Program-made: the position numbers and the translations under genes
In this document: piece after piece, positions 22,136-63,981 of the stretch
Numbering within the stretch: position 1 is the first letter of the stretch
Layout of the letters: every line of letters starts with the position of its first letter
The notes under the pieces: generated by a model
What the model saw: the letters and a program-made list of their open reading frames with translations, nothing else
What the model was told of the DNA's origin: nothing
Database searches by the model: none
Virus record (IMG/VR): IMGVR_UViG_3300046536_000804
From: an uncultured virus (IMG/VR IMGVR_UViG_3300046536_000804)
Lineage: Duplodnaviria > Heunggongvirae > Uroviricota > Caudoviricetes
Length of the DNA stretch: 64,000 nucleotides
Direction: 5' to 3' (one strand)

Positions 22136-22873
22136 TCACTCGACGTCGGTCGTCATCTCTGAAGATAACAAATTCAACAACTGGTCCGGCGCCACCGCCA
22201 TATGCCGCAGCCACCGGCTGAACTGGTGCAACATCAGCCCGGCGCTGATCGATGCCGTATAGATGGTGGCCCGCGCCGTGCAGGACCCGGAATACGCGTC
22301 GATGCTGCCGAACAGCGTCGTCTCGTAATACTTGTCGGTGTACGGCTTGTCCACGGCCAGGATGCGCAGCGTCTCGGACGCCATGCGGCCGTCCACGAAG
22401 AAACTGATCTGCTGCTTGACGGCGTCCCAGATCATTTTCCTGGTCTCGATGCTGTCGACGCAGCAGAAGACAGCCAACCGCAAGTCGCCGAGGGCTGACG
22501 CTATGTTCGTAAGATCTCGCATCGACGCGCGGGTGAACTTCTCCGGAAACTCGGTGACTTCACAGTCCGGGTTGATACGGCCACAGAGATCAGCAGTGGC
22601 CTTGACCTTGGGCCAGTTGATATCGTCTGGCCAATAGCCTTGCGGCGCCAGGTTCTCGATTGCGACGATGTCGTGATCGAAAAGGACGATACGTTTGGCC
22701 CCGAGGGCCGCGAGCTGCAAGGCGGTCTGCCGTCCGCCAGCTCCAACGCCGATAACGATCGGCAAGCACTTCTCGAGATTCTCCGGCGGCACCAGGCTGC
22801 GTTGACGAGAGTCACGCTGCAGGGGCGCCTCCTTGACTTCCGCACCAGGCGGATCAAGCGTTGCTTCGAGCAT
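22136..22873 (-). CDS. E1-like activating enzyme (ThiF/MoeB family)
   Basis: RDSRQ, IGVGAGG, FDHDIV..ENL..Q, CVDSIETR, DGRM; candidate catalytic Cys in GSCTAR. Confidence 0.9.
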   Translation of the reverse strand: MLEATLDPPGAEVKEAPLQRDSRQRSLVPPENLEKCLPIVIGVGAGGRQTALQLAALGAKRIVLFDHDIVAIENLAPQGYWPDDINWPKVKATADLCGRINPDCEVTEFPEKFTRASMRDLTNIASALGDLRLAVFCCVDSIETRKMIWDAVKQQISFFVDGRMASETLRILAVDKPYTDKYYETTLFGSIDAYSGSCTARATIYTASISAGLMLHQFSRWLRHMAVAPDQLLNLLSSEMTTDVE

Positions 22874-23060: not shown

Positions 23061-24272
23061 TCAATCGTTACGAGCCGAGGCGTACCGGAACGACATCTCC
23101 GCATCAGCCATATCGTCACCGCTCGCTGCGAGATCCTGAAGTTCAAAGTCGTCGAGGGAGCTGTAATACGCCTCCATTTGTGCCTCTTCCTCTTCCGCTT
23201 CGAGATCCATATCGATCTCGAGCTGGCGGCGATCTCGTTCTGCCATGATGAGGCGATCCTCCTCGAGGGCAGCTTCCCACTCAGCATCCTCGTCAGCCCG
23301 TTGCTGCCGTCGCTCCTGAGCGAGAGCGGCCTCGATGTCGGCATTTGTCGGCAGACCGTACTGCTCGGCCAGGACTCGGTAGGCCCGAATGTCACCGACA
23401 GCGTATCGAGCACGCAGCTCACCCTCGGTCATCCTCTCGTAGTCGAGAGTCGTGTCAGCCGAGGTGTGCAGCAGATCATTGATCTCGATAGCGGTCGTGC
23501 TGGCCGCTTGAGCCACTGGCGTCGTCAACGTCGTGTCTGGCGACGGCTTCTGCACCATCTCCAGAACTGCTATGGCGTCCTTGTCGCCTTTTGTGGCCCG
23601 GGCGACGAGAGAGTCGAGCGTTTCGGCACCCTCGAACTTCTTGCTGTTGCCGTGACTTTGCCAGCTAGCGTACGACGCCTGTCGCTGGTCGATTGACAGA
23701 TGACCGTAGTGGTCGTAATCGAACTGCCCTTGAGGATTCACGTGCTCGTTGAACTCGTCTTGCCAGTTACAGATTTCGTTGTCGATATCGTACCTATCGA
23801 CGAGAGCGGGAAATCCTGACCAGTCGACCGCGACGGCCAACTCTGTGGAATAACCCGGTCCGATGTTGAACTTCAGCCGAGCATACGTTCGATCGGTGCG
23901 GCTGAGAATGAACATGATCGCCCAGTCGCACGTGCCGAACGCTTCGCGAAAGGTCGTCTCATCTGCGTGGCTCGGCTCCGGGGAAGACCCGGGATGGGTA
24001 TGACACCAGATGCGAAGAAATTCACAAGGCTGAAGCTTGCGATCGACGCATTCGTCGGTGAATTCACCGACCGCGATATCGTCCAGGTCGACGCTGTCGC
24101 TTTCGTTGAGCTGCTTGACGGTGTGGAACTCGTCGATGTAGAGAGGCTGATGCTTCGAGGAGATGGCGAACCCACCGATCTCGGTGTGACCGCGGTGACA
24201 GAACCACTGCAATTTCATCCAAGCAATTGCCGAGAAGGTGAGAACCTTCCCTTTGTTTGAGTAAAAACTCAT
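23061..24272 (-). CDS. JAB/MPN+ metallo-isopeptidase (deubiquitinase-like) with acidic tail
   Basis: TEIGG and HTHPGSSPEPSHAD match E...HxHx7SxxD. Confidence 0.88.
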   Translation of the reverse strand: MSFYSNKGKVLTFSAIAWMKLQWFCHRGHTEIGGFAISSKHQPLYIDEFHTVKQLNESDSVDLDDIAVGEFTDECVDRKLQPCEFLRIWCHTHPGSSPEPSHADETTFREAFGTCDWAIMFILSRTDRTYARLKFNIGPGYSTELAVAVDWSGFPALVDRYDIDNEICNWQDEFNEHVNPQGQFDYDHYGHLSIDQRQASYASWQSHGNSKKFEGAETLDSLVARATKGDKDAIAVLEMVQKPSPDTTLTTPVAQAASTTAIEINDLLHTSADTTLDYERMTEGELRARYAVGDIRAYRVLAEQYGLPTNADIEAALAQERRQQRADEDAEWEAALEEDRLIMAERDRRQLEIDMDLEAEEEEAQMEAYYSSLDDFELQDLAASGDDMADAEMSFRYASARND

Positions 24273-62288: not shown

Positions 62289-62311
62289 ATCCTTACCCCA
62301 GCAAGTGTACG

Positions 62312-62349
62312 AAAAAAGCCCTAAGTTGCACTTGCACAACTTAGAGCTT
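62312..62349 (-). terminator. intrinsic terminator closing the tRNA array
   Basis: AAGCTCTAAGTTG-N8-CAACTTAGGGCTT followed by TTTT. Confidence 0.7.
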
Positions 62350-62446
62350 CGGCAAGTTCAGAATCTGAACTAGCTATGCTGCACCACGATATACTGACAC
62401 ACTTTCGAGGCTAATTTAGCACAAATGGACCCAATGACTTTTGTCG

Positions 62447-62469
62447 TCTTTGACCCGACGCAAAGGGTT
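62447..62469 (-). repeat. 23-nt motif copy just 3' of the tRNA array
   Basis: AACCCTTTGCGTCGGGTCAAAGA. Confidence 0.8.
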
Positions 62470-62476
62470 AGTGAAT

Positions 62477-62549
62477 CGCCCTCGCTCGGATTCGAACCGA
62501 GGTCTCAACCGTTTAGAGCGGTAGTGCGATGCCGCTTCGCCACGAGGGC
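62477..62549 (-). tRNA. tRNA with CUA anticodon (amber suppressor type)
   Basis: acceptor GCCCTCG/CGAGGGC, D arm GCGA/TCGC, ACCG-CT CTA AA-CGGT, T arm CTCGG-TTCGAAT-CCGAG; no encoded CCA. Confidence 0.85.
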
Positions 62550-63140
62550 TTTATTCCTTCCGCAGAATGTTTCTGTCTGCGAGTTGCAGTTTGGGCACAG
62601 CAACCTCAGGTTGCTTACGAGACCATTGCGACGATTTCCGTCTATGTGATCCAAGATAAGTACAAGCGGTTTGCCGAACCAAGACGGTGAATTACCGCAT
62701 TCGTAGCAGTTGTTGTTCAGGATGCCTTCGGCGATCAGTCTTCGTTTTCTACCGCCACCGATGGGGTGGTCACTGTCTGCAACTAACACCTCCGCCCACG
62801 GCGTACGTTGTCTGATTCCTGACGTGCCGTGACTTAACCCTTTCCAGTGGCTGGTATCAAGACCGTGTCTCGCCACTTCGCGTTTCACCCAGCTATAGGC
62901 AGAGCCTACAATAGCTCGATTCATCTTGCGAAGGACTGCTGATATGCTCAAGCTCTCTGCAACAGCCTGTTTGAACGCGTCAACGTCGTATCCTTGCCGT
63001 CGGTTACTTACTAGATGGTCAAGGCGGTGTTTCTTGATCCACCAGCGAACAGTTGATCGCGAACAATCAAAATAATCGGCGATCTCCTGTAGCGATTCGT
63101 CGTGGATCGTCAAACGCTGCTCGAGAATATTTTTGTCCAT
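62505..63140 (-). CDS. HNH homing endonuclease with N-terminal HTH
   Basis: LQEIADYFDCSRSTVRWW; CYECG...LDHIDGN..N..SNLRLLCPNC; 3' end overlaps tRNA-CUA. Confidence 0.88.
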   Translation of the reverse strand: MDKNILEQRLTIHDESLQEIADYFDCSRSTVRWWIKKHRLDHLVSNRRQGYDVDAFKQAVAESLSISAVLRKMNRAIVGSAYSWVKREVARHGLDTSHWKGLSHGTSGIRQRTPWAEVLVADSDHPIGGGRKRRLIAEGILNNNCYECGNSPSWFGKPLVLILDHIDGNRRNGLVSNLRLLCPNCNSQTETFCGRNKALVAKRHRTTALNG

Positions 63141-63147
63141 ACATACT

Positions 63148-63176
63148 ATCGTAGCACAACAGGAGTGGCGGAGCAA
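63148..63176 (-). promoter_or_regulatory. sigma70-like promoter for a probably leaderless HNH mRNA
   Basis: TTGCTC-N17-TACGAT with extended TG; ATG follows after a 7-nt spacer. Confidence 0.55.
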
Positions 63177-63207
63177 TTCGCTGCTCTGCCAATTGAGCTA
63201 CGGCCGC
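63174..63207 (-). pseudogene. tRNA 5' half truncated in the anticodon loop
   Basis: GCGGCCG TA GCTC AATTGGCA GAGC A GCGAA TT G, then the HNH cassette; no matching 3' half seen. Confidence 0.7.
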
Positions 63208-63213
63208 TTACAT

Positions 63214-63287
63214 TGACCTCGCCTGGAGTCGAACCAGGATTACGACCGTTTAACGGGTCGGGAATTAGCCAATTATTCGACGAGGTC
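63214..63287 (-). tRNA. tRNA with 8-nt anticodon loop, probable UUA (ochre) anticodon
   Basis: GACCTCG/CGAGGTC, GAAT/ATTC, CGACC-CGTTAAAC-GGTCG, CCTGG-TTCGACT-CCAGG. Confidence 0.7.
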
Positions 63288-63292
63288 TAAAG

Positions 63293-63464
63293 AGCCGGTG
63301 GCAAGATTCGAACTTGCGTCCAACGGTTTATTAAACCGCTGCTCGAGCAGTGTCAGCTCTGGCGTTCTTCACCGGTTGTACTTCCCGGCTATCACCGCTT
63401 TCGCTTGGCTGCCAGATCATCGCAACGTTAACGCCCGCGACGATCCCCACTGAGCTACACCGGC
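63293..63464 (-). ncRNA. tRNA-like RNA with 107-nt D-loop and AAU anticodon
   Basis: perfect GCCGGTG/CACCGGC, GCTC/GAGC, GCGGT-TTAATAA-ACCGT, GCAAG-TTCGAAT-CTTGC. Confidence 0.75.
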
Positions 63465-63468
63465 ATAG

Positions 63469-63587
63469 CGGCGGTGGCTGGATTCGAACCAACACCTCCC
63501 AGCAAGCTGGGTGCTCACCACCCCGGAAGGGGAGTGCCGATCTTTGCCGGCGAACCGGTTTCGAAGGACACATTGAGCTACACCGCC
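63469..63587 (-). ncRNA. tRNA-like RNA with 58-nt D-loop and CUUG tetraloop instead of an anticodon loop
   Basis: perfect GGCGGTG/CACCGCC, GCTC/GAGC, CCCAG-CTTG-CTGGG, GTTGG-TTCGAAT-CCAGC. Confidence 0.75.
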
Positions 63588-63594
63588 GTTGTCC

Positions 63595-63617
63595 TCTTTC
63601 ACCCGAGGCCAAGGGTT
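63595..63617 (-). repeat. 23-nt motif copy just 5' of the tRNA array
   Basis: AACCCTTGGCCTCGGGTGAAAGA. Confidence 0.8.
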
Positions 63618-63624
63618 ATCTGTC

Positions 63625-63981
63625 TCACGCTGCTGCCAGGGACAAGCCCCGCAGCAACTTCTGCTTACGGAACACCCGCCGCTGCTCGCCCGACACCAAC
63701 TCGGTGGCAAACGCCGTCATCTCGTTGTCGAGATCCTCTTCCCAGAACTCGCTGCAGCGGATGCCGGCAGCTCTCGCAGTCTTCAGCATCTCGACGAGTT
63801 CTTTCTCGTCGGCGACGGTGCAGATGACCAGGTTGGGACTCTCGACGTCTTCAGGGGTGAGATGGTTGCGTGCCGATTTGATGGCAGCATGGCAAGCCTG
63901 GACGGCCTGCTGTGGGACAGAAAGGTCTTCGCGGACGACGCAATAAATGTACTGCGTTGGACTGGAGATCTAGTGAGTCAT
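63625..63981 (-). CDS. Pth2-like peptidyl-tRNA hydrolase with in-frame TAG at codon 4 (absent from the ORF track)
   Basis: AAGGAG-N6-ATG ACT CAC TAG, then 114 open codons: YIYCVVREDLSVPQQAVQACHAA...LVICTVADEKEL...FWEEDLDNEMTAFAT...KLL. Confidence 0.8.

What the first reader, a model, noticed from the sequence alone, without database searches (positions are those of the whole stretch)
63293..63587. Two tandem tRNA-like RNAs with large structured insertions in the D-loop
Seen: both have perfect 7-bp acceptor stems, TA-GCTC/GAGC D-stems and canonical T-arms, but D-loops of 58 and 107 nt with unrelated sequences. Both inserts fold. RNA A has GTGTC/GGCAC enclosing CCGG-TTCG-CCGG, plus CCCC-TTCC-GGGG. 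RNA B has AGTG/CACT closing GATCGTCGCG/TGCGATGATC and a TGGC/GCCA multiloop with a GAAA hairpin. RNA A has a G(CUUG)C tetraloop where the anticodon loop should be, so it cannot decode. RNA B has a Thr-like body with an AAU anticodon, which is rare in bacteria. Intact stems argue against random decay. Inference: a tRNA-scaffolded ncRNA class (decoys for anticodon nucleases or tRNA sensors, Y-RNA-like, or RNAs with D-loop introns) that standard tRNA finders would probably miss.
Basis: partly seen in the sequence, partly recalled or inferred. Interest (0 to 1): 0.82.

Follow-up and report, generated by a model that had tools for sequence, protein, structure and literature searches.

The report
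tRNA-framed phage RNAs with D-loop modules
A soil phage carries two tandem genes for RNAs that keep the outer frame of a transfer RNA but hold a large folded insert in one loop; they resemble the little-understood "tRNA-like stable RNAs" of phages T5 and T4, whose job is still unknown.

Summary
On the minus strand, RNA A (63587..63469, 119 nt) and RNA B (63464..63293, 172 nt) are complete cloverleaf frames. Their D-loops are 58 and 107 nt. RNA A's anticodon loop is a CUUG tetraloop. RNA B has the loop UUAAUAA on a Thr-like body. Rfam's tRNA model scores RNA A at 48 bits. My cloverleaf parser finds 3 hits in the window, all in this array, against 0.075 per shuffled window.

They lie in a tight tRNA cassette of a novel large phage from a rhizosphere metagenome, with an HNH endonuclease gene and an amber-suppressor tRNA. 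No homologue of either insert was found, and no RNA data exist.

Analogous RNAs, with a D-loop insert and a capped anticodon arm, occur in other viral and metagenomic contigs. One is a megaphage fragment that also has about 50 normal tRNAs. None was seen among 121 cellular-genome loci.

The closest known things are phage T5 RNA1 and RNA2 ("tRNA-like stable RNA with unknown functions") and T4 rnaC and rnaD. This scan has reported the same class before on other DNA.

Verdict: real, probably selected, non-decoding tRNA-framed RNAs. They are a D-loop variant of a known but unexplained kind, and their function is inferred only.

The parts
63469..63587 (-). RNA A: a 119-nt tRNA-framed RNA with a full cloverleaf frame, a 58-nt D-loop and a capped anticodon arm.
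   Evidence: Rfam tRNA 48.0 bits over model positions 1-71, with a 54-nt insertion in the D-loop. Parser hit. MFE cloverleaf -51.6 kcal/mol. Identical in a 209-nt contig from a second study.
63517..63574 (-). D-loop of RNA A (58 nt). It predicts two hairpins: GUGUC..CCGG-UUCG-CCGG..GGCAC and CCCC-UUCC-GGGG. A UGGU that could supply G18 and G19 follows.
   Evidence: Folds. The insert alone is not better than shuffles (z -1.1). No similar sequence in any held locus.
63498..63511 (-). RNA A anticodon arm, closed by a CUUG tetraloop (CCCAG-CUUG-CUGGG). There is no anticodon.
   Evidence: Read directly from the sequence. The Rfam alignment shows the loop 3 nt short. Parser loop length 4.
63293..63464 (-). 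RNA B: a 172-nt tRNA-framed RNA with a Thr-like frame, a 107-nt D-loop and anticodon loop UUAAUAA (AAU).
   Evidence: Parser hit. Rfam partial hit at 63301-63348, 29.1 bits. Cloverleaf-constrained fold -71.2 against MFE -72.1. Nearest tRNAs are Thr, 10 of the top 15.
63345..63451 (-). D-loop of RNA B (107 nt). It holds a 14-bp hairpin with three G-U pairs (GGAUCGUCGCGG...UUGCGAUGAUC) and a long irregular hairpin with GA-rich internal loops and a GC-GAAA-GC element.
   Evidence: Strand-specific stability: sense -41.3 kcal/mol, z -2.6; antisense -29.2, z -0.76. Constrained fold. No homologue found.
63214..63287 (-). tRNA3: a tRNA-shaped gene with an 8-nt anticodon loop (CGUUAAAC), 5 nt downstream of RNA B.
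   Evidence: ARAGORN calls it 'tRNA-??? (ttaa)'. Parser hit. No Rfam tRNA hit at E up to 10.
63167..63207 (-). Orphan tRNA 5' half: the acceptor 5' strand and a complete D-arm, ending against the HNH gene.
   Evidence: Sequence. No 3' acceptor strand preceded by a T-arm within 1.5 kb downstream.
62505..63140 (-). HNH endonuclease gene with an N-terminal helix-turn-helix, lying inside the tRNA array. Its last 45 nt overlap tRNA-CUA.
   Evidence: PHROG 10822 'HNH endonuclease', E 1.1e-38. Weak Pfam HTH and HNH hits. 61-nt match at 84% to an HNH gene of Streptomyces phage Karp.
62477..62549 (-). tRNA with anticodon CUA (amber suppressor), the last gene of the array.
   Evidence: ARAGORN. Rfam tRNA 52.7 bits.
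63589..63618 (-). Copy 1 of the 30-nt motif TAACCCTTGGCCTCGGGTGAAAGAGGACAA, ending 1 nt before RNA A.
   Evidence: 2 matches in the window against 0 in 100 shuffles. The stem covaries with copy 2. Further copies lie on other contigs of the source run.
62441..62470 (-). Copy 2 of the 30-nt motif, starting 6 nt after tRNA-CUA. With copy 1 it brackets the whole cassette.
63625..63981 (-). PTH2-domain (peptidyl-tRNA hydrolase 2) ORF directly upstream of the cassette, with an in-frame TAG at codon 4.
   Evidence: Pfam PF01981, 29.2 bits against a cut-off of 23. Translation.

Best explanation
RNA A and RNA B are genes for tRNA-framed small RNAs that do not decode. This is certain from the sequence for A and probable for B.

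They are transcribed with the neighbouring tRNA genes. The spacers are 4, 5 and 6 nt. Because the acceptor stem, T-arm and elbow residues are intact, the host's tRNA-maturing enzymes would cut them out: RNase P at the 5' end, a 3' exonuclease or RNase Z at the 3' end, and CCA addition, since no CCA is encoded.

The tRNA frame acts as a processing and stability chassis. The folded module inserted in the variable pocket of the D-loop, next to the elbow, is the part that does the work. It probably binds a protein or RNA of the host or the phage.

Shown here: the anatomy, its non-random nature, the cassette context, and the existence of analogous RNAs in other phages. Inferred: transcription, processing, stability, and any binding partner.
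For: 1. The frame is intact while the loops are altered.
- All four stems pair fully in both RNAs: 7, 4, 5 and 5 pairs.
- U8, A14, an R15:Y48 pair (A15:U48 in A, G15:C48 in B), a GG in the D-loop, G53:C61 and the UUCGAAU T-loop are all kept.
- Rfam scores A at 48 bits despite the insert.

2. RNA A's anticodon loop is replaced by a stable CUUG tetraloop.

3. RNA B's module is stable only on the tRNA-sense strand, with three G-U pairs in its 14-bp hairpin.

4. The design recurs independently.
- By strict parse, 5 of the 11 rows with a D-loop insert and a non-7-nt anticodon loop are convincing: window A, L009, L116, L161 and L167.
- By eye and by folding, L035/L194, L233, L009-2, L009-3 and L161-3 also fit.
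- In all of these a GG lies beside the insert.

5. These RNAs are extras, not decayed tRNAs. The L009 contig (238,888 bp) has 53 Rfam tRNA matches, 50 over the cut-off. Nearly all are normal-length and lie at 113-129 kb. The tRNA-like array is separate, at about 141.5-142 kb.

6. Within L009 the module is conserved more than the frame: 34 of 37 identical against 34 of 64 (3' frame) and 13 of 20 (5' frame).

7. None of the 25 non-duplicate D-insert rows from 121 cellular-genome loci has a convincingly capped arm. The one exception is an alternative parse in an archaeal MAG.

8. Precedent exists. T5 RNA1 and RNA2 are annotated as tRNA-like stable RNAs in a tRNA/HNH cluster. T4 RNAC and RNAD were validated by Northern blot and have unknown function (passages of PMC9697503).

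9. A 209-nt contig from another study covers 63432-63640. It has 0 differences in the 156 nt of RNA A plus the start of B, and 3 differences in the 53 nt upstream. By my hand calculation the one-sided probability is about 0.016.
Against: - No homologue of either module was found, so there is no covariation evidence for A or B themselves. This covers the phage records, an exact 27-mer in viral contigs and all held loci.
- RNA A's module does not fold better than shuffled sequence.
- The array shows signs of erosion. There is an orphan tRNA 5' half against the HNH gene and a tRNA3 that Rfam does not recognise.
- A21 is not kept in either RNA.
- 66 loci from the nearest IMG/VR relatives, at about 40% protein identity, have no tRNA genes at all near the marker gene. 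The cassette is therefore young or lineage-specific.
- RNA B keeps a formally normal 7-nt anticodon loop.
- The analogous RNAs were found with a pattern that fixed the D-stem and T-loop sequences. How common the class is remains unmeasured.
Confidence: 0.5

Rival explanations
1. Processing punctuation. The tRNA-like folds serve only as cut-here signals for RNase P and RNase Z. These cuts would separate the PTH2 mRNA upstream from the kinase-like gene's mRNA downstream. The D-loop inserts would be tolerated passengers.
For: - RNA A starts 38 nt after the PTH2 stop codon.
- The cassette is bracketed by a 30-nt hairpin motif that could cap the mRNA ends left after cutting.
- A capped anticodon arm is what a pure processing signal would tolerate.
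- Earlier notes of this scan reached this reading for insert-less mimics (unchecked by me).
Against: - One tRNA-like element would be enough, yet there are four in tandem plus a real tRNA.
- The reading does not explain structured, strand-specific modules of 58 and 107 nt.
- It does not explain why the module is better conserved than the frame in L009.
Confidence: 0.15
2. Decoy or inhibitor. The RNAs mimic the upper half of a tRNA to bind and occupy a host factor. That factor would recognise the acceptor end, T-arm or elbow, for example a defence toxin that modifies or cuts tRNA 3' ends, or a processing or modifying enzyme. The missing anticodon and the bulky D-loop would keep the RNAs off the ribosome.
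For: - The acceptor, T-arm and elbow are intact while the decoding end is disabled.
- The cassette holds translation-related neighbours: a PTH2-domain ORF and a suppressor tRNA.
- Phage tRNA clusters are known anti-defence loci. In PMC13096335 (listing and abstract only), Septu cuts tRNA-Tyr and SegB amplifies the T6 tRNA region.
Against: - No defence or target gene is identifiable here.
- RNA A cannot be a decoy for anticodon nucleases.
- Host tRNAs are very abundant, so a stoichiometric decoy would need much higher affinity (my inference).
- Nothing tested here distinguishes this from the payload reading.
Confidence: 0.13
3. Eroding tRNA genes. Ordinary phage tRNA genes, Thr-like for B, were hit by small insertions in the D-loop and by a 3-nt loss in A's anticodon loop. 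The damage would belong with the mobile-element traffic that brought in the HNH gene, and the RNAs would have no function.
For: - An orphan tRNA 5' half abuts the HNH ORF.
- tRNA3 is aberrant.
- RNA A's insert folds no better than chance.
- No homologues were found.
- A 2,970-nt contig of the same run aligns to 63447-63496 at about 84%. It continues with an uninterrupted D-loop where RNA B has its insert (table 7). Whether it is homologous is uncertain.
Against: - All 21 frame base pairs and the tertiary-contact residues survive in both RNAs, while only the loops changed.
- The tetraloop cap is a recurrent design elsewhere.
- RNA B's module has a strand-specific fold.
- RNA A is identical in a second study while the flank varies.
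Confidence: 0.14
4. Interrupted tRNA genes. The insert would be removed, as an intron or as an RNase III-excised intervening sequence that leaves a nicked but working tRNA. RNA B at least would then become a decoding tRNA(AAU).
For: - RNA B keeps a 7-nt loop with U33 and A37.
- D-loop introns exist in archaea and one red alga (PMC3241643, PMC3695527, PMC9602550; listings and abstracts only).
- My scans found many archaeal tRNA-Arg(CCU) genes with 40-65-nt D-loop inserts.
- RNA B's 14-bp hairpin is long enough for RNase III (my inference).
Against: - RNA A has no anticodon, spliced or not.
- No group I, group II or small-ribozyme family matched at E up to 10.
- The inserts are far too short for group I introns.
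- No bulge-helix-bulge arrangement would remove the insert, although my control failed, so this point is weak.
- The T-loops are UUCGAAU, as in the bacterial hits. The archaeal hits mostly have UUCAAAU.
- The A34 anticodon AAU on a Thr-like body fits no normal bacterial charging rule (established identity rules, recalled).
Confidence: 0.06

Closest known systems
Phage T5 RNA1 (144 nt) and RNA2 (125 nt), GenBank AY543070 misc_RNA features 'tRNA-like stable RNA with unknown functions'; also RNA3
   Same: - They are encoded inside a phage tRNA gene cluster interspersed with H-N-H endonuclease genes.
- They have an acceptor/T-arm frame plus a large extra folded domain and no usable anticodon loop in the predicted fold.
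- The size range is similar.
- Function is unknown.
   Different: - In the T5 folds the extra domain sits in the anticodon arm and the D-arm is normal. Here it sits in the D-loop.
- There is no sequence similarity beyond a 15-nt T-loop match.
- T5 RNA1 scores only 24 bits on Rfam tRNA, against 48 for RNA A.
- The record describes the T5 RNAs as stable RNAs. Expression here is untested.
Phage T4 rnaC (species 1, 139 nt) and rnaD (species 2, 119 nt)
   Same: - They are small stable RNAs at the end of a phage tRNA cluster that also holds a homing endonuclease gene, segB.
- rnaC has a canonical T-arm and paired ends.
- Their functions are 'yet unknown' (PMC9697503, passages).
   Different: - rnaD shows no tRNA frame in my fold.
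- rnaC reaches only 17.5 bits on a tRNA-clan model.
- There is no D-loop module and no sequence similarity.
Archaeal pre-tRNAs with introns in the D-loop, for example the tRNA-Arg(CCU) genes of Bathyarchaeota and other archaeal MAGs found here
   Same: The insert is 40-65 nt, lies in the D-loop beside the GG, and sits in an otherwise perfect cloverleaf.
   Different: - Those genes keep a normal 7-nt anticodon loop: 12 of 19 metagenome rows and 15 of 25 genome rows are CCU.
- They lie in cellular, mostly archaeal, genomes.
- They are removed by the archaeal splicing endonuclease (literature, listings only).
- RNA A has no anticodon, and the window is a phage with bacterial-type T-loops.
Bacterial Y RNA YrlA (Rfam RF02553)
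   Same: It is a non-coding RNA that mimics tRNA D-arm and T-arm features and is found in some phages (recalled).
   Different: - YrlA is circularly permuted relative to tRNA (recalled; the Rfam alignment order shows the T-arm before the D-arm).
- The only match, 19.8 bits against a cut-off of 69, spans two adjacent genes.
- No Ro/TROVE gene was found among the 61 ORFs scanned.
Anticodon-less tRNA mimics and 'two-slot tRNA-framed' phage RNAs reported earlier by this scan (e1-6107528, e1-5892779, e1-5677029, e1-5410931, e1-6028075 and others)
   Same: - A tRNA frame with the anticodon loop sealed or replaced.
- e1-6107528 also has a 56-nt D-loop insert.
- All are phage-borne and of unknown function.
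   Different: - They lie on other genomes, and no shared sequence was found.
- Here two such genes stand in tandem, and one of them keeps a 7-nt loop.
- Those notes are AI reports that I did not re-test, apart from the T5 and T4 annotations.

Membership tests
Canonical decoding tRNA (Rfam RF00005) | Cloverleaf with a 7-bp acceptor stem, D-arm, anticodon arm and T-arm, scoring at or above the gathering score of 29 bits | tested here: met
   RNA A scores 48.0 bits over model positions 1-71. RNA B scores 29.1 bits over positions 10-63 only, and my parser finds its full frame.
Canonical decoding tRNA (Rfam RF00005) | A 7-nt anticodon loop with U33 and a usable anticodon | tested here: not met
   RNA A has the 4-nt loop CUUG. 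RNA B formally meets this feature (UUAAUAA), but its anticodon AAU sits on a Thr-like frame.
Canonical decoding tRNA (Rfam RF00005) | A D-loop of about 7-11 nt | tested here: not met
   58 nt in A and 107 nt in B.
Phage tRNA-like stable RNAs (T5 RNA1/RNA2 type) | Encoded within a phage tRNA gene cluster | tested here: met
   The array is RNA A, RNA B, tRNA3, a tRNA half, the HNH gene and tRNA-CUA. Compare the T5 layout.
Phage tRNA-like stable RNAs (T5 RNA1/RNA2 type) | A tRNA acceptor/T-arm frame carrying a large extra structured domain, with no decoding loop | tested here: met
   The insertion site differs: the D-loop here, the anticodon arm in T5.
Phage tRNA-like stable RNAs (T5 RNA1/RNA2 type) | Accumulates as a stable RNA in infected cells | not testable with these tools
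   No RNA run holds the stretch. The laid runs are DNA contigs.
Phage tRNA-like stable RNAs (T5 RNA1/RNA2 type) | Sequence or module homology to the T5 or T4 RNAs | tested here: not met
   blastn-short found only a 15-nt T-loop match to the T5 locus and none to the T4 locus.
Archaeal-type intron-containing pre-tRNA | A bulge-helix-bulge motif at the exon-intron boundaries | tested here: inconclusive
   My scan found 0 motifs in A, and none in B that removes the insert. It also failed to recover sensible splice sites in the archaeal control genes.
Archaeal-type intron-containing pre-tRNA | Splicing yields a functional decoding tRNA | tested here: not met
   RNA A lacks an anticodon loop whatever happens to the D-loop insert.
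Group I intron-interrupted bacterial or phage tRNA | A group I catalytic core, usually over 200 nt, in the anticodon loop | tested here: not met
   No intron family matched at E up to 10 in 62300-63700. The inserts are 58 and 107 nt and lie in the D-loop.
YrlA / bacterial Y RNA (RF02553) | A match to the covariance model at the gathering score, and a partner Ro60/Rsr gene | tested here: not met
   19.8 bits against 69, at 63183-63239, outside the finding. No TROVE hit in the 61 ORFs.
tmRNA | A tRNA-like domain plus a tag reading frame | tested here: not met
   ARAGORN reports no tmRNA. There is no Rfam tmRNA hit.

The most novel reading that the evidence does not exclude
Phages use the tRNA fold as a general display chassis. 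Unrelated, exchangeable RNA modules are plugged into the D-loop, the anticodon arm or the variable loop. The resulting RNAs are cut out and stabilised by the host's own tRNA machinery, and each module targets a different host or phage factor, for example a defence protein. RNA A and RNA B would be two D-loop-loaded members with different payloads. The 50-year-old orphan RNAs of T4 and T5 would be members of the same system.
Probability: 0.25. Interest if true: 0.8.

Novelty: new variant of a known kind. Interest (0 to 1): 0.55.

Why it matters
Small stable RNAs with a tRNA-like frame have been known in the tRNA clusters of T4 and T5 for decades without a function. Finding the same design in an unrelated soil phage and in several other uncultured phages points to a widespread, selected RNA class that neither tRNA finders nor Rfam cover. 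Here the insert sits in a different loop, and the tertiary-contact residues are kept.

If the modules are payloads or decoys, they would be a new kind of phage-host interaction. They would also be a natural counterpart of the engineered 'tRNA scaffold' used to express RNAs (recalled).

For annotation, such genes are currently missed or mislabelled. This single locus adds an example and a variant, not a mechanism.

Tried and rejected
- No whole genome is held for the window.
- A single-protein search for relatives in viral contigs found none. A profile search found 66 loci at about 30-43% identity. None has a tRNA by ARAGORN or a long tRNA-like by my strict scan. None encodes the PTH2-like, kinase-like or HNH protein. 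Synteny therefore gave no orthologues.
- An exact 27-mer of RNA A's module had 0 hits in viral contigs.
- The 30-nt flanking motif had 0 hits in viral contigs and in genome contigs.
- blastn against 50,697 phage records matched only the HNH gene or generic tRNA junctions: 242 records, none covering an insert.
Only L009 itself had a tRNA context, so that scan was wasted.
- The bulge-helix-bulge scan failed its archaeal control.
- tblastn of six window proteins against the class loci gave no hits, so no shared neighbour gene was found.
- No RNA holder is listed for the stretch. Only DNA contigs could be laid.
- Seven literature searches found no paper describing phage tRNA-like RNAs with D-loop expansions. 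PMC10690425 (passages) mentions 'tRNA or tRNA-like' candidates only in general terms. Supplements were not consulted.
- Recoding of TAG across the window was considered and rejected as a general feature, because many genes end in TAG.
- RNA A's frame could not be assigned to an isotype.
Full report
**What is there**

All features are on the minus strand. Reading 5' to 3', the layout is:
- a PTH2-domain ORF, 63981..63625 (Pfam 29.2 bits against a cut-off of 23);
- a 30-nt motif, 63618..63589;
- RNA A, 63587..63469;
- a 4-nt spacer;
- RNA B, 63464..63293;
- a 5-nt spacer;
- tRNA3, a tRNA-shaped gene with an 8-nt anticodon loop, 63287..63214 (ARAGORN only);
- a 6-nt spacer;
- an orphan tRNA 5' half, 63207..~63167, with no matching 3' part within 1.5 kb;
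- an HNH endonuclease gene, 63140..62505 (PHROG E 1.1e-38);
- a tRNA with anticodon CUA, 62549..62477 (Rfam 52.7 bits);
- a second copy of the 30-nt motif, 62470..62441 (2 matches against 0 in 100 shuffles).

**The observation**

RNA A and RNA B each have a perfect 7-bp acceptor stem, U8, a GCUC/GAGC D-stem, a 5-bp anticodon stem and a 5-bp T-stem with the loop UUCGAAU. Their D-loops are 58 and 107 nt.

RNA A's anticodon arm is CCCAG-CUUG-CUGGG. RNA B's loop is UUAAUAA.

Several tests show this is more than chance:
- Rfam's tRNA model scores RNA A at 48.0 bits, with E 3.5e-7 over the whole window.
- My cloverleaf parser finds three hits in the window, all in this array. Forty dinucleotide shuffles gave a mean of 0.075 hits.
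- The canonical cloverleaf of B costs only 0.9 kcal/mol more than its MFE.
- RNA B's insert is stable only on this strand: z -2.6 sense against -0.76 antisense. RNA A's insert alone is no better than shuffled sequence, with 36 of 300 shuffles as good.

ARAGORN calls neither RNA. Rfam's default run misses A. With the insert removed in a script, B's frame is nearest to tRNA-Thr: 10 of the top 15, against 48 of 304 overall. A's frame has no clear isotype.

**Context**

The window is part of a 159,470-bp contig from a rhizosphere metagenome. It is a novel tailed phage.
- Only 5 of 22 large ORFs hit PHROGs, among them a baseplate wedge and a Dda-like helicase.
- Pfam adds Baseplate_J, a Dam methylase, ThiF and JAB.
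- Marker-gene relatives in IMG/VR are only about 30-43% identical. They have no tRNA genes within 10 kb: 0 of 66 loci.

The cassette is therefore lineage-specific. No RNA run holds the stretch, so expression is untested.

A 209-nt contig from a second study is identical over RNA A and the start of B. It differs at 3 positions in the upstream motif.

**Related RNAs elsewhere**

A pattern fixing only the D-stem, the GAGC and the T-loop, with a 40-70-nt gap, returned 47 viral loci.
- 42 of them are one 114-nt family that I did not pursue.
- 2 are false positives made of adjacent tRNAs (L018, L019).
- L017 has its insert in the anticodon loop.
- L009 and L035 are D-loop-insert tRNA-likes with tetraloop-capped anticodon arms and an encoded CCA.

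It added L116, L161, L167 and L233.

In every case a GG lies beside the insert. The inserts therefore occupy the variable pockets of the D-loop and spare the elbow contacts.

The L009 contig is a 238,888-bp fragment with 50 Rfam-grade tRNAs elsewhere. Its three tRNA-likes are extras. Two of them share a D-loop module at 34 of 37 identity, while their frames are 34 of 64 and 13 of 20 identical.

In L161 each tRNA-like has its own promoter-like palindrome. Two copies share a hairpin in the D-loop.

The D-loop-insert genes there almost all keep 7-nt anticodon loops. They are mostly archaeal tRNA-Arg(CCU): 15 of 25 rows. These are the known archaeal D-loop introns and are a different thing.

**What is known**

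A note from an earlier stage of this scan pointed to phage T5, and I checked the record. AY543070 annotates RNA1 (144 nt) and RNA2 (125 nt) as 'tRNA-like stable RNA with unknown functions', and RNA3 as 'putative tRNA-like RNA'. They lie among the tRNA genes and two H-N-H endonuclease genes.

Their predicted folds keep the acceptor and T-arm and a normal D-arm, and they expand the anticodon arm.

T4 annotates rnaC and rnaD next to segB in its tRNA cluster. rnaC has a canonical T-arm. [quoted passage not shown]

None of my seven literature searches found a description of D-loop-expanded phage tRNA-likes.

**Interpretation**

The simplest reading that fits all of this is that A and B are selected, non-decoding tRNA-framed RNAs. 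The frame recruits tRNA processing and gives stability, and the D-loop module is the working part. I put this at about 0.5.

Only the anatomy, its non-randomness and the recurrence of the design are shown. Transcription, processing and any partner are inferred.

The rivals, with the weights I give them, are:
- pure processing punctuation, 0.15;
- decoy or inhibitor of a tRNA-binding factor, 0.13;
- eroding tRNA genes, 0.14, supported by the orphan half-tRNA and the aberrant tRNA3;
- an excised insert restoring a tRNA, 0.06, which is impossible for A.

The Y-RNA and tmRNA readings fail their membership tests.

**Limits**

- No homologue of either module was found, so there is no covariation test for these two RNAs.
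- My bulge-helix-bulge scan failed its control.
- The host is unknown. Weak hints point to Actinobacteria: an HNH match to Streptomyces phages and tRNA-junction matches mostly to Mycobacterium phages (208 of 242 records).

Noticed in passing
63589-63618 and 62441-62470 (minus strand): A 30-nt motif, TAACCCTTNGNNTCGGGTNAAAGANGACAA, brackets the whole tRNA/HNH cassette. Its 4-bp stem covaries between the copies (CCUC/GAGG against CGUC/GACG). A variant in another study keeps the pairing as U-G. Other contigs of the source run carry several more copies. It could be a phage promoter, a processing site or an mRNA-end hairpin.
   Followed up: partly
63625-63981 (minus strand): The PTH2-domain ORF has a good Shine-Dalgarno sequence and an ATG, but an in-frame TAG at codon 4. 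With canonical starts, only a 54-aa C-terminal piece is open. An amber-suppressor tRNA (CUA) lies 1.1 kb downstream in the same cassette. TAG is an ordinary stop for many other genes in the window.
   Followed up: partly
63214-63287 (minus strand): A tRNA-shaped gene with an 8-nt anticodon loop (CGUUAAAC). ARAGORN reports the anticodon 'ttaa', but Rfam's tRNA model gives no hit even at E up to 10.
   Followed up: partly
63167-63207 and 62505-63140 (minus strand): An orphan tRNA 5' half (acceptor strand and a full D-arm) runs straight into the HNH endonuclease gene, with no 3' half within 1.5 kb. The HNH ORF's last 45 nt overlap the tRNA-CUA gene. This looks like the scar of an endonuclease-gene insertion.
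   Followed up: partly
L355 (G001:C1:134000-152000), array at about L355:7540-8165: In the 238,888-bp viral contig of L009, the tRNA-like array lies between an ORF with Major Vault Protein shoulder and repeat domains (67.2 bits) and ORFs for ThiF, JAB and a weak Prok-E2. The window also has ThiF (22136-22873) and JAB (23061-24272) ORFs, about 40 kb from its array.
   Followed up: partly
L161:820-1600: An AT-rich metagenome contig carries at least four tRNA-like genes. Each is directly preceded by the same palindromic promoter-like motif (CTGTTAATG..TATAAT..TTAACAG). Two share a conserved hairpin inside the D-loop insert. ARAGORN also calls a tRNA with anticodon AAA there.
   Followed up: partly
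L167:130-1700 (minus strand): A GC-rich 56,870-bp metagenome contig has several tRNA-like genes with inserts of about 40 to 130 nt in the D-loop, the anticodon loop or the variable region, separated by small ORFs.
   Followed up: no
L017:1200-1760: Two tRNA-likes with 62-65-nt inserts in the anticodon loop, and a dispersed repeat (GTGGCGA..CGGTTACTTC) that recurs at least six times, both inside and between them.
   Followed up: no
L001-L047 (42 of 47 loci), for example L001:1490-1620: A 114-nt pattern match is shared by 42 viral contigs. Rfam reads it as one 131-nt tRNA (43.9 bits) with a large internal insertion. By eye it looks like two truncated tRNA-like units fused.
   Followed up: no
L239, L261, L271, L277, L279, L293, L306, L307, L315, L320, L345 and others: tRNA-Arg(CCU) genes with 40-65-nt D-loop inserts are common in Bathyarchaeota and other archaeal MAGs. 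Some of the inserts share conserved cores (for example GGGGGUUCCCG). A few bacterial MAGs (L236 Muribaculaceae tRNA-Gly(CCC), L300 cyanobacterium) also show D-loop inserts.
   Followed up: no
63447-63496, source-run contig 'record 5': A 2,970-nt contig of the same run matches the RNA A / RNA B junction at about 84%. It continues with TAGAGCA, an uninterrupted D-loop, where RNA B has its insert. What follows is again not a standard anticodon arm.
   Followed up: no
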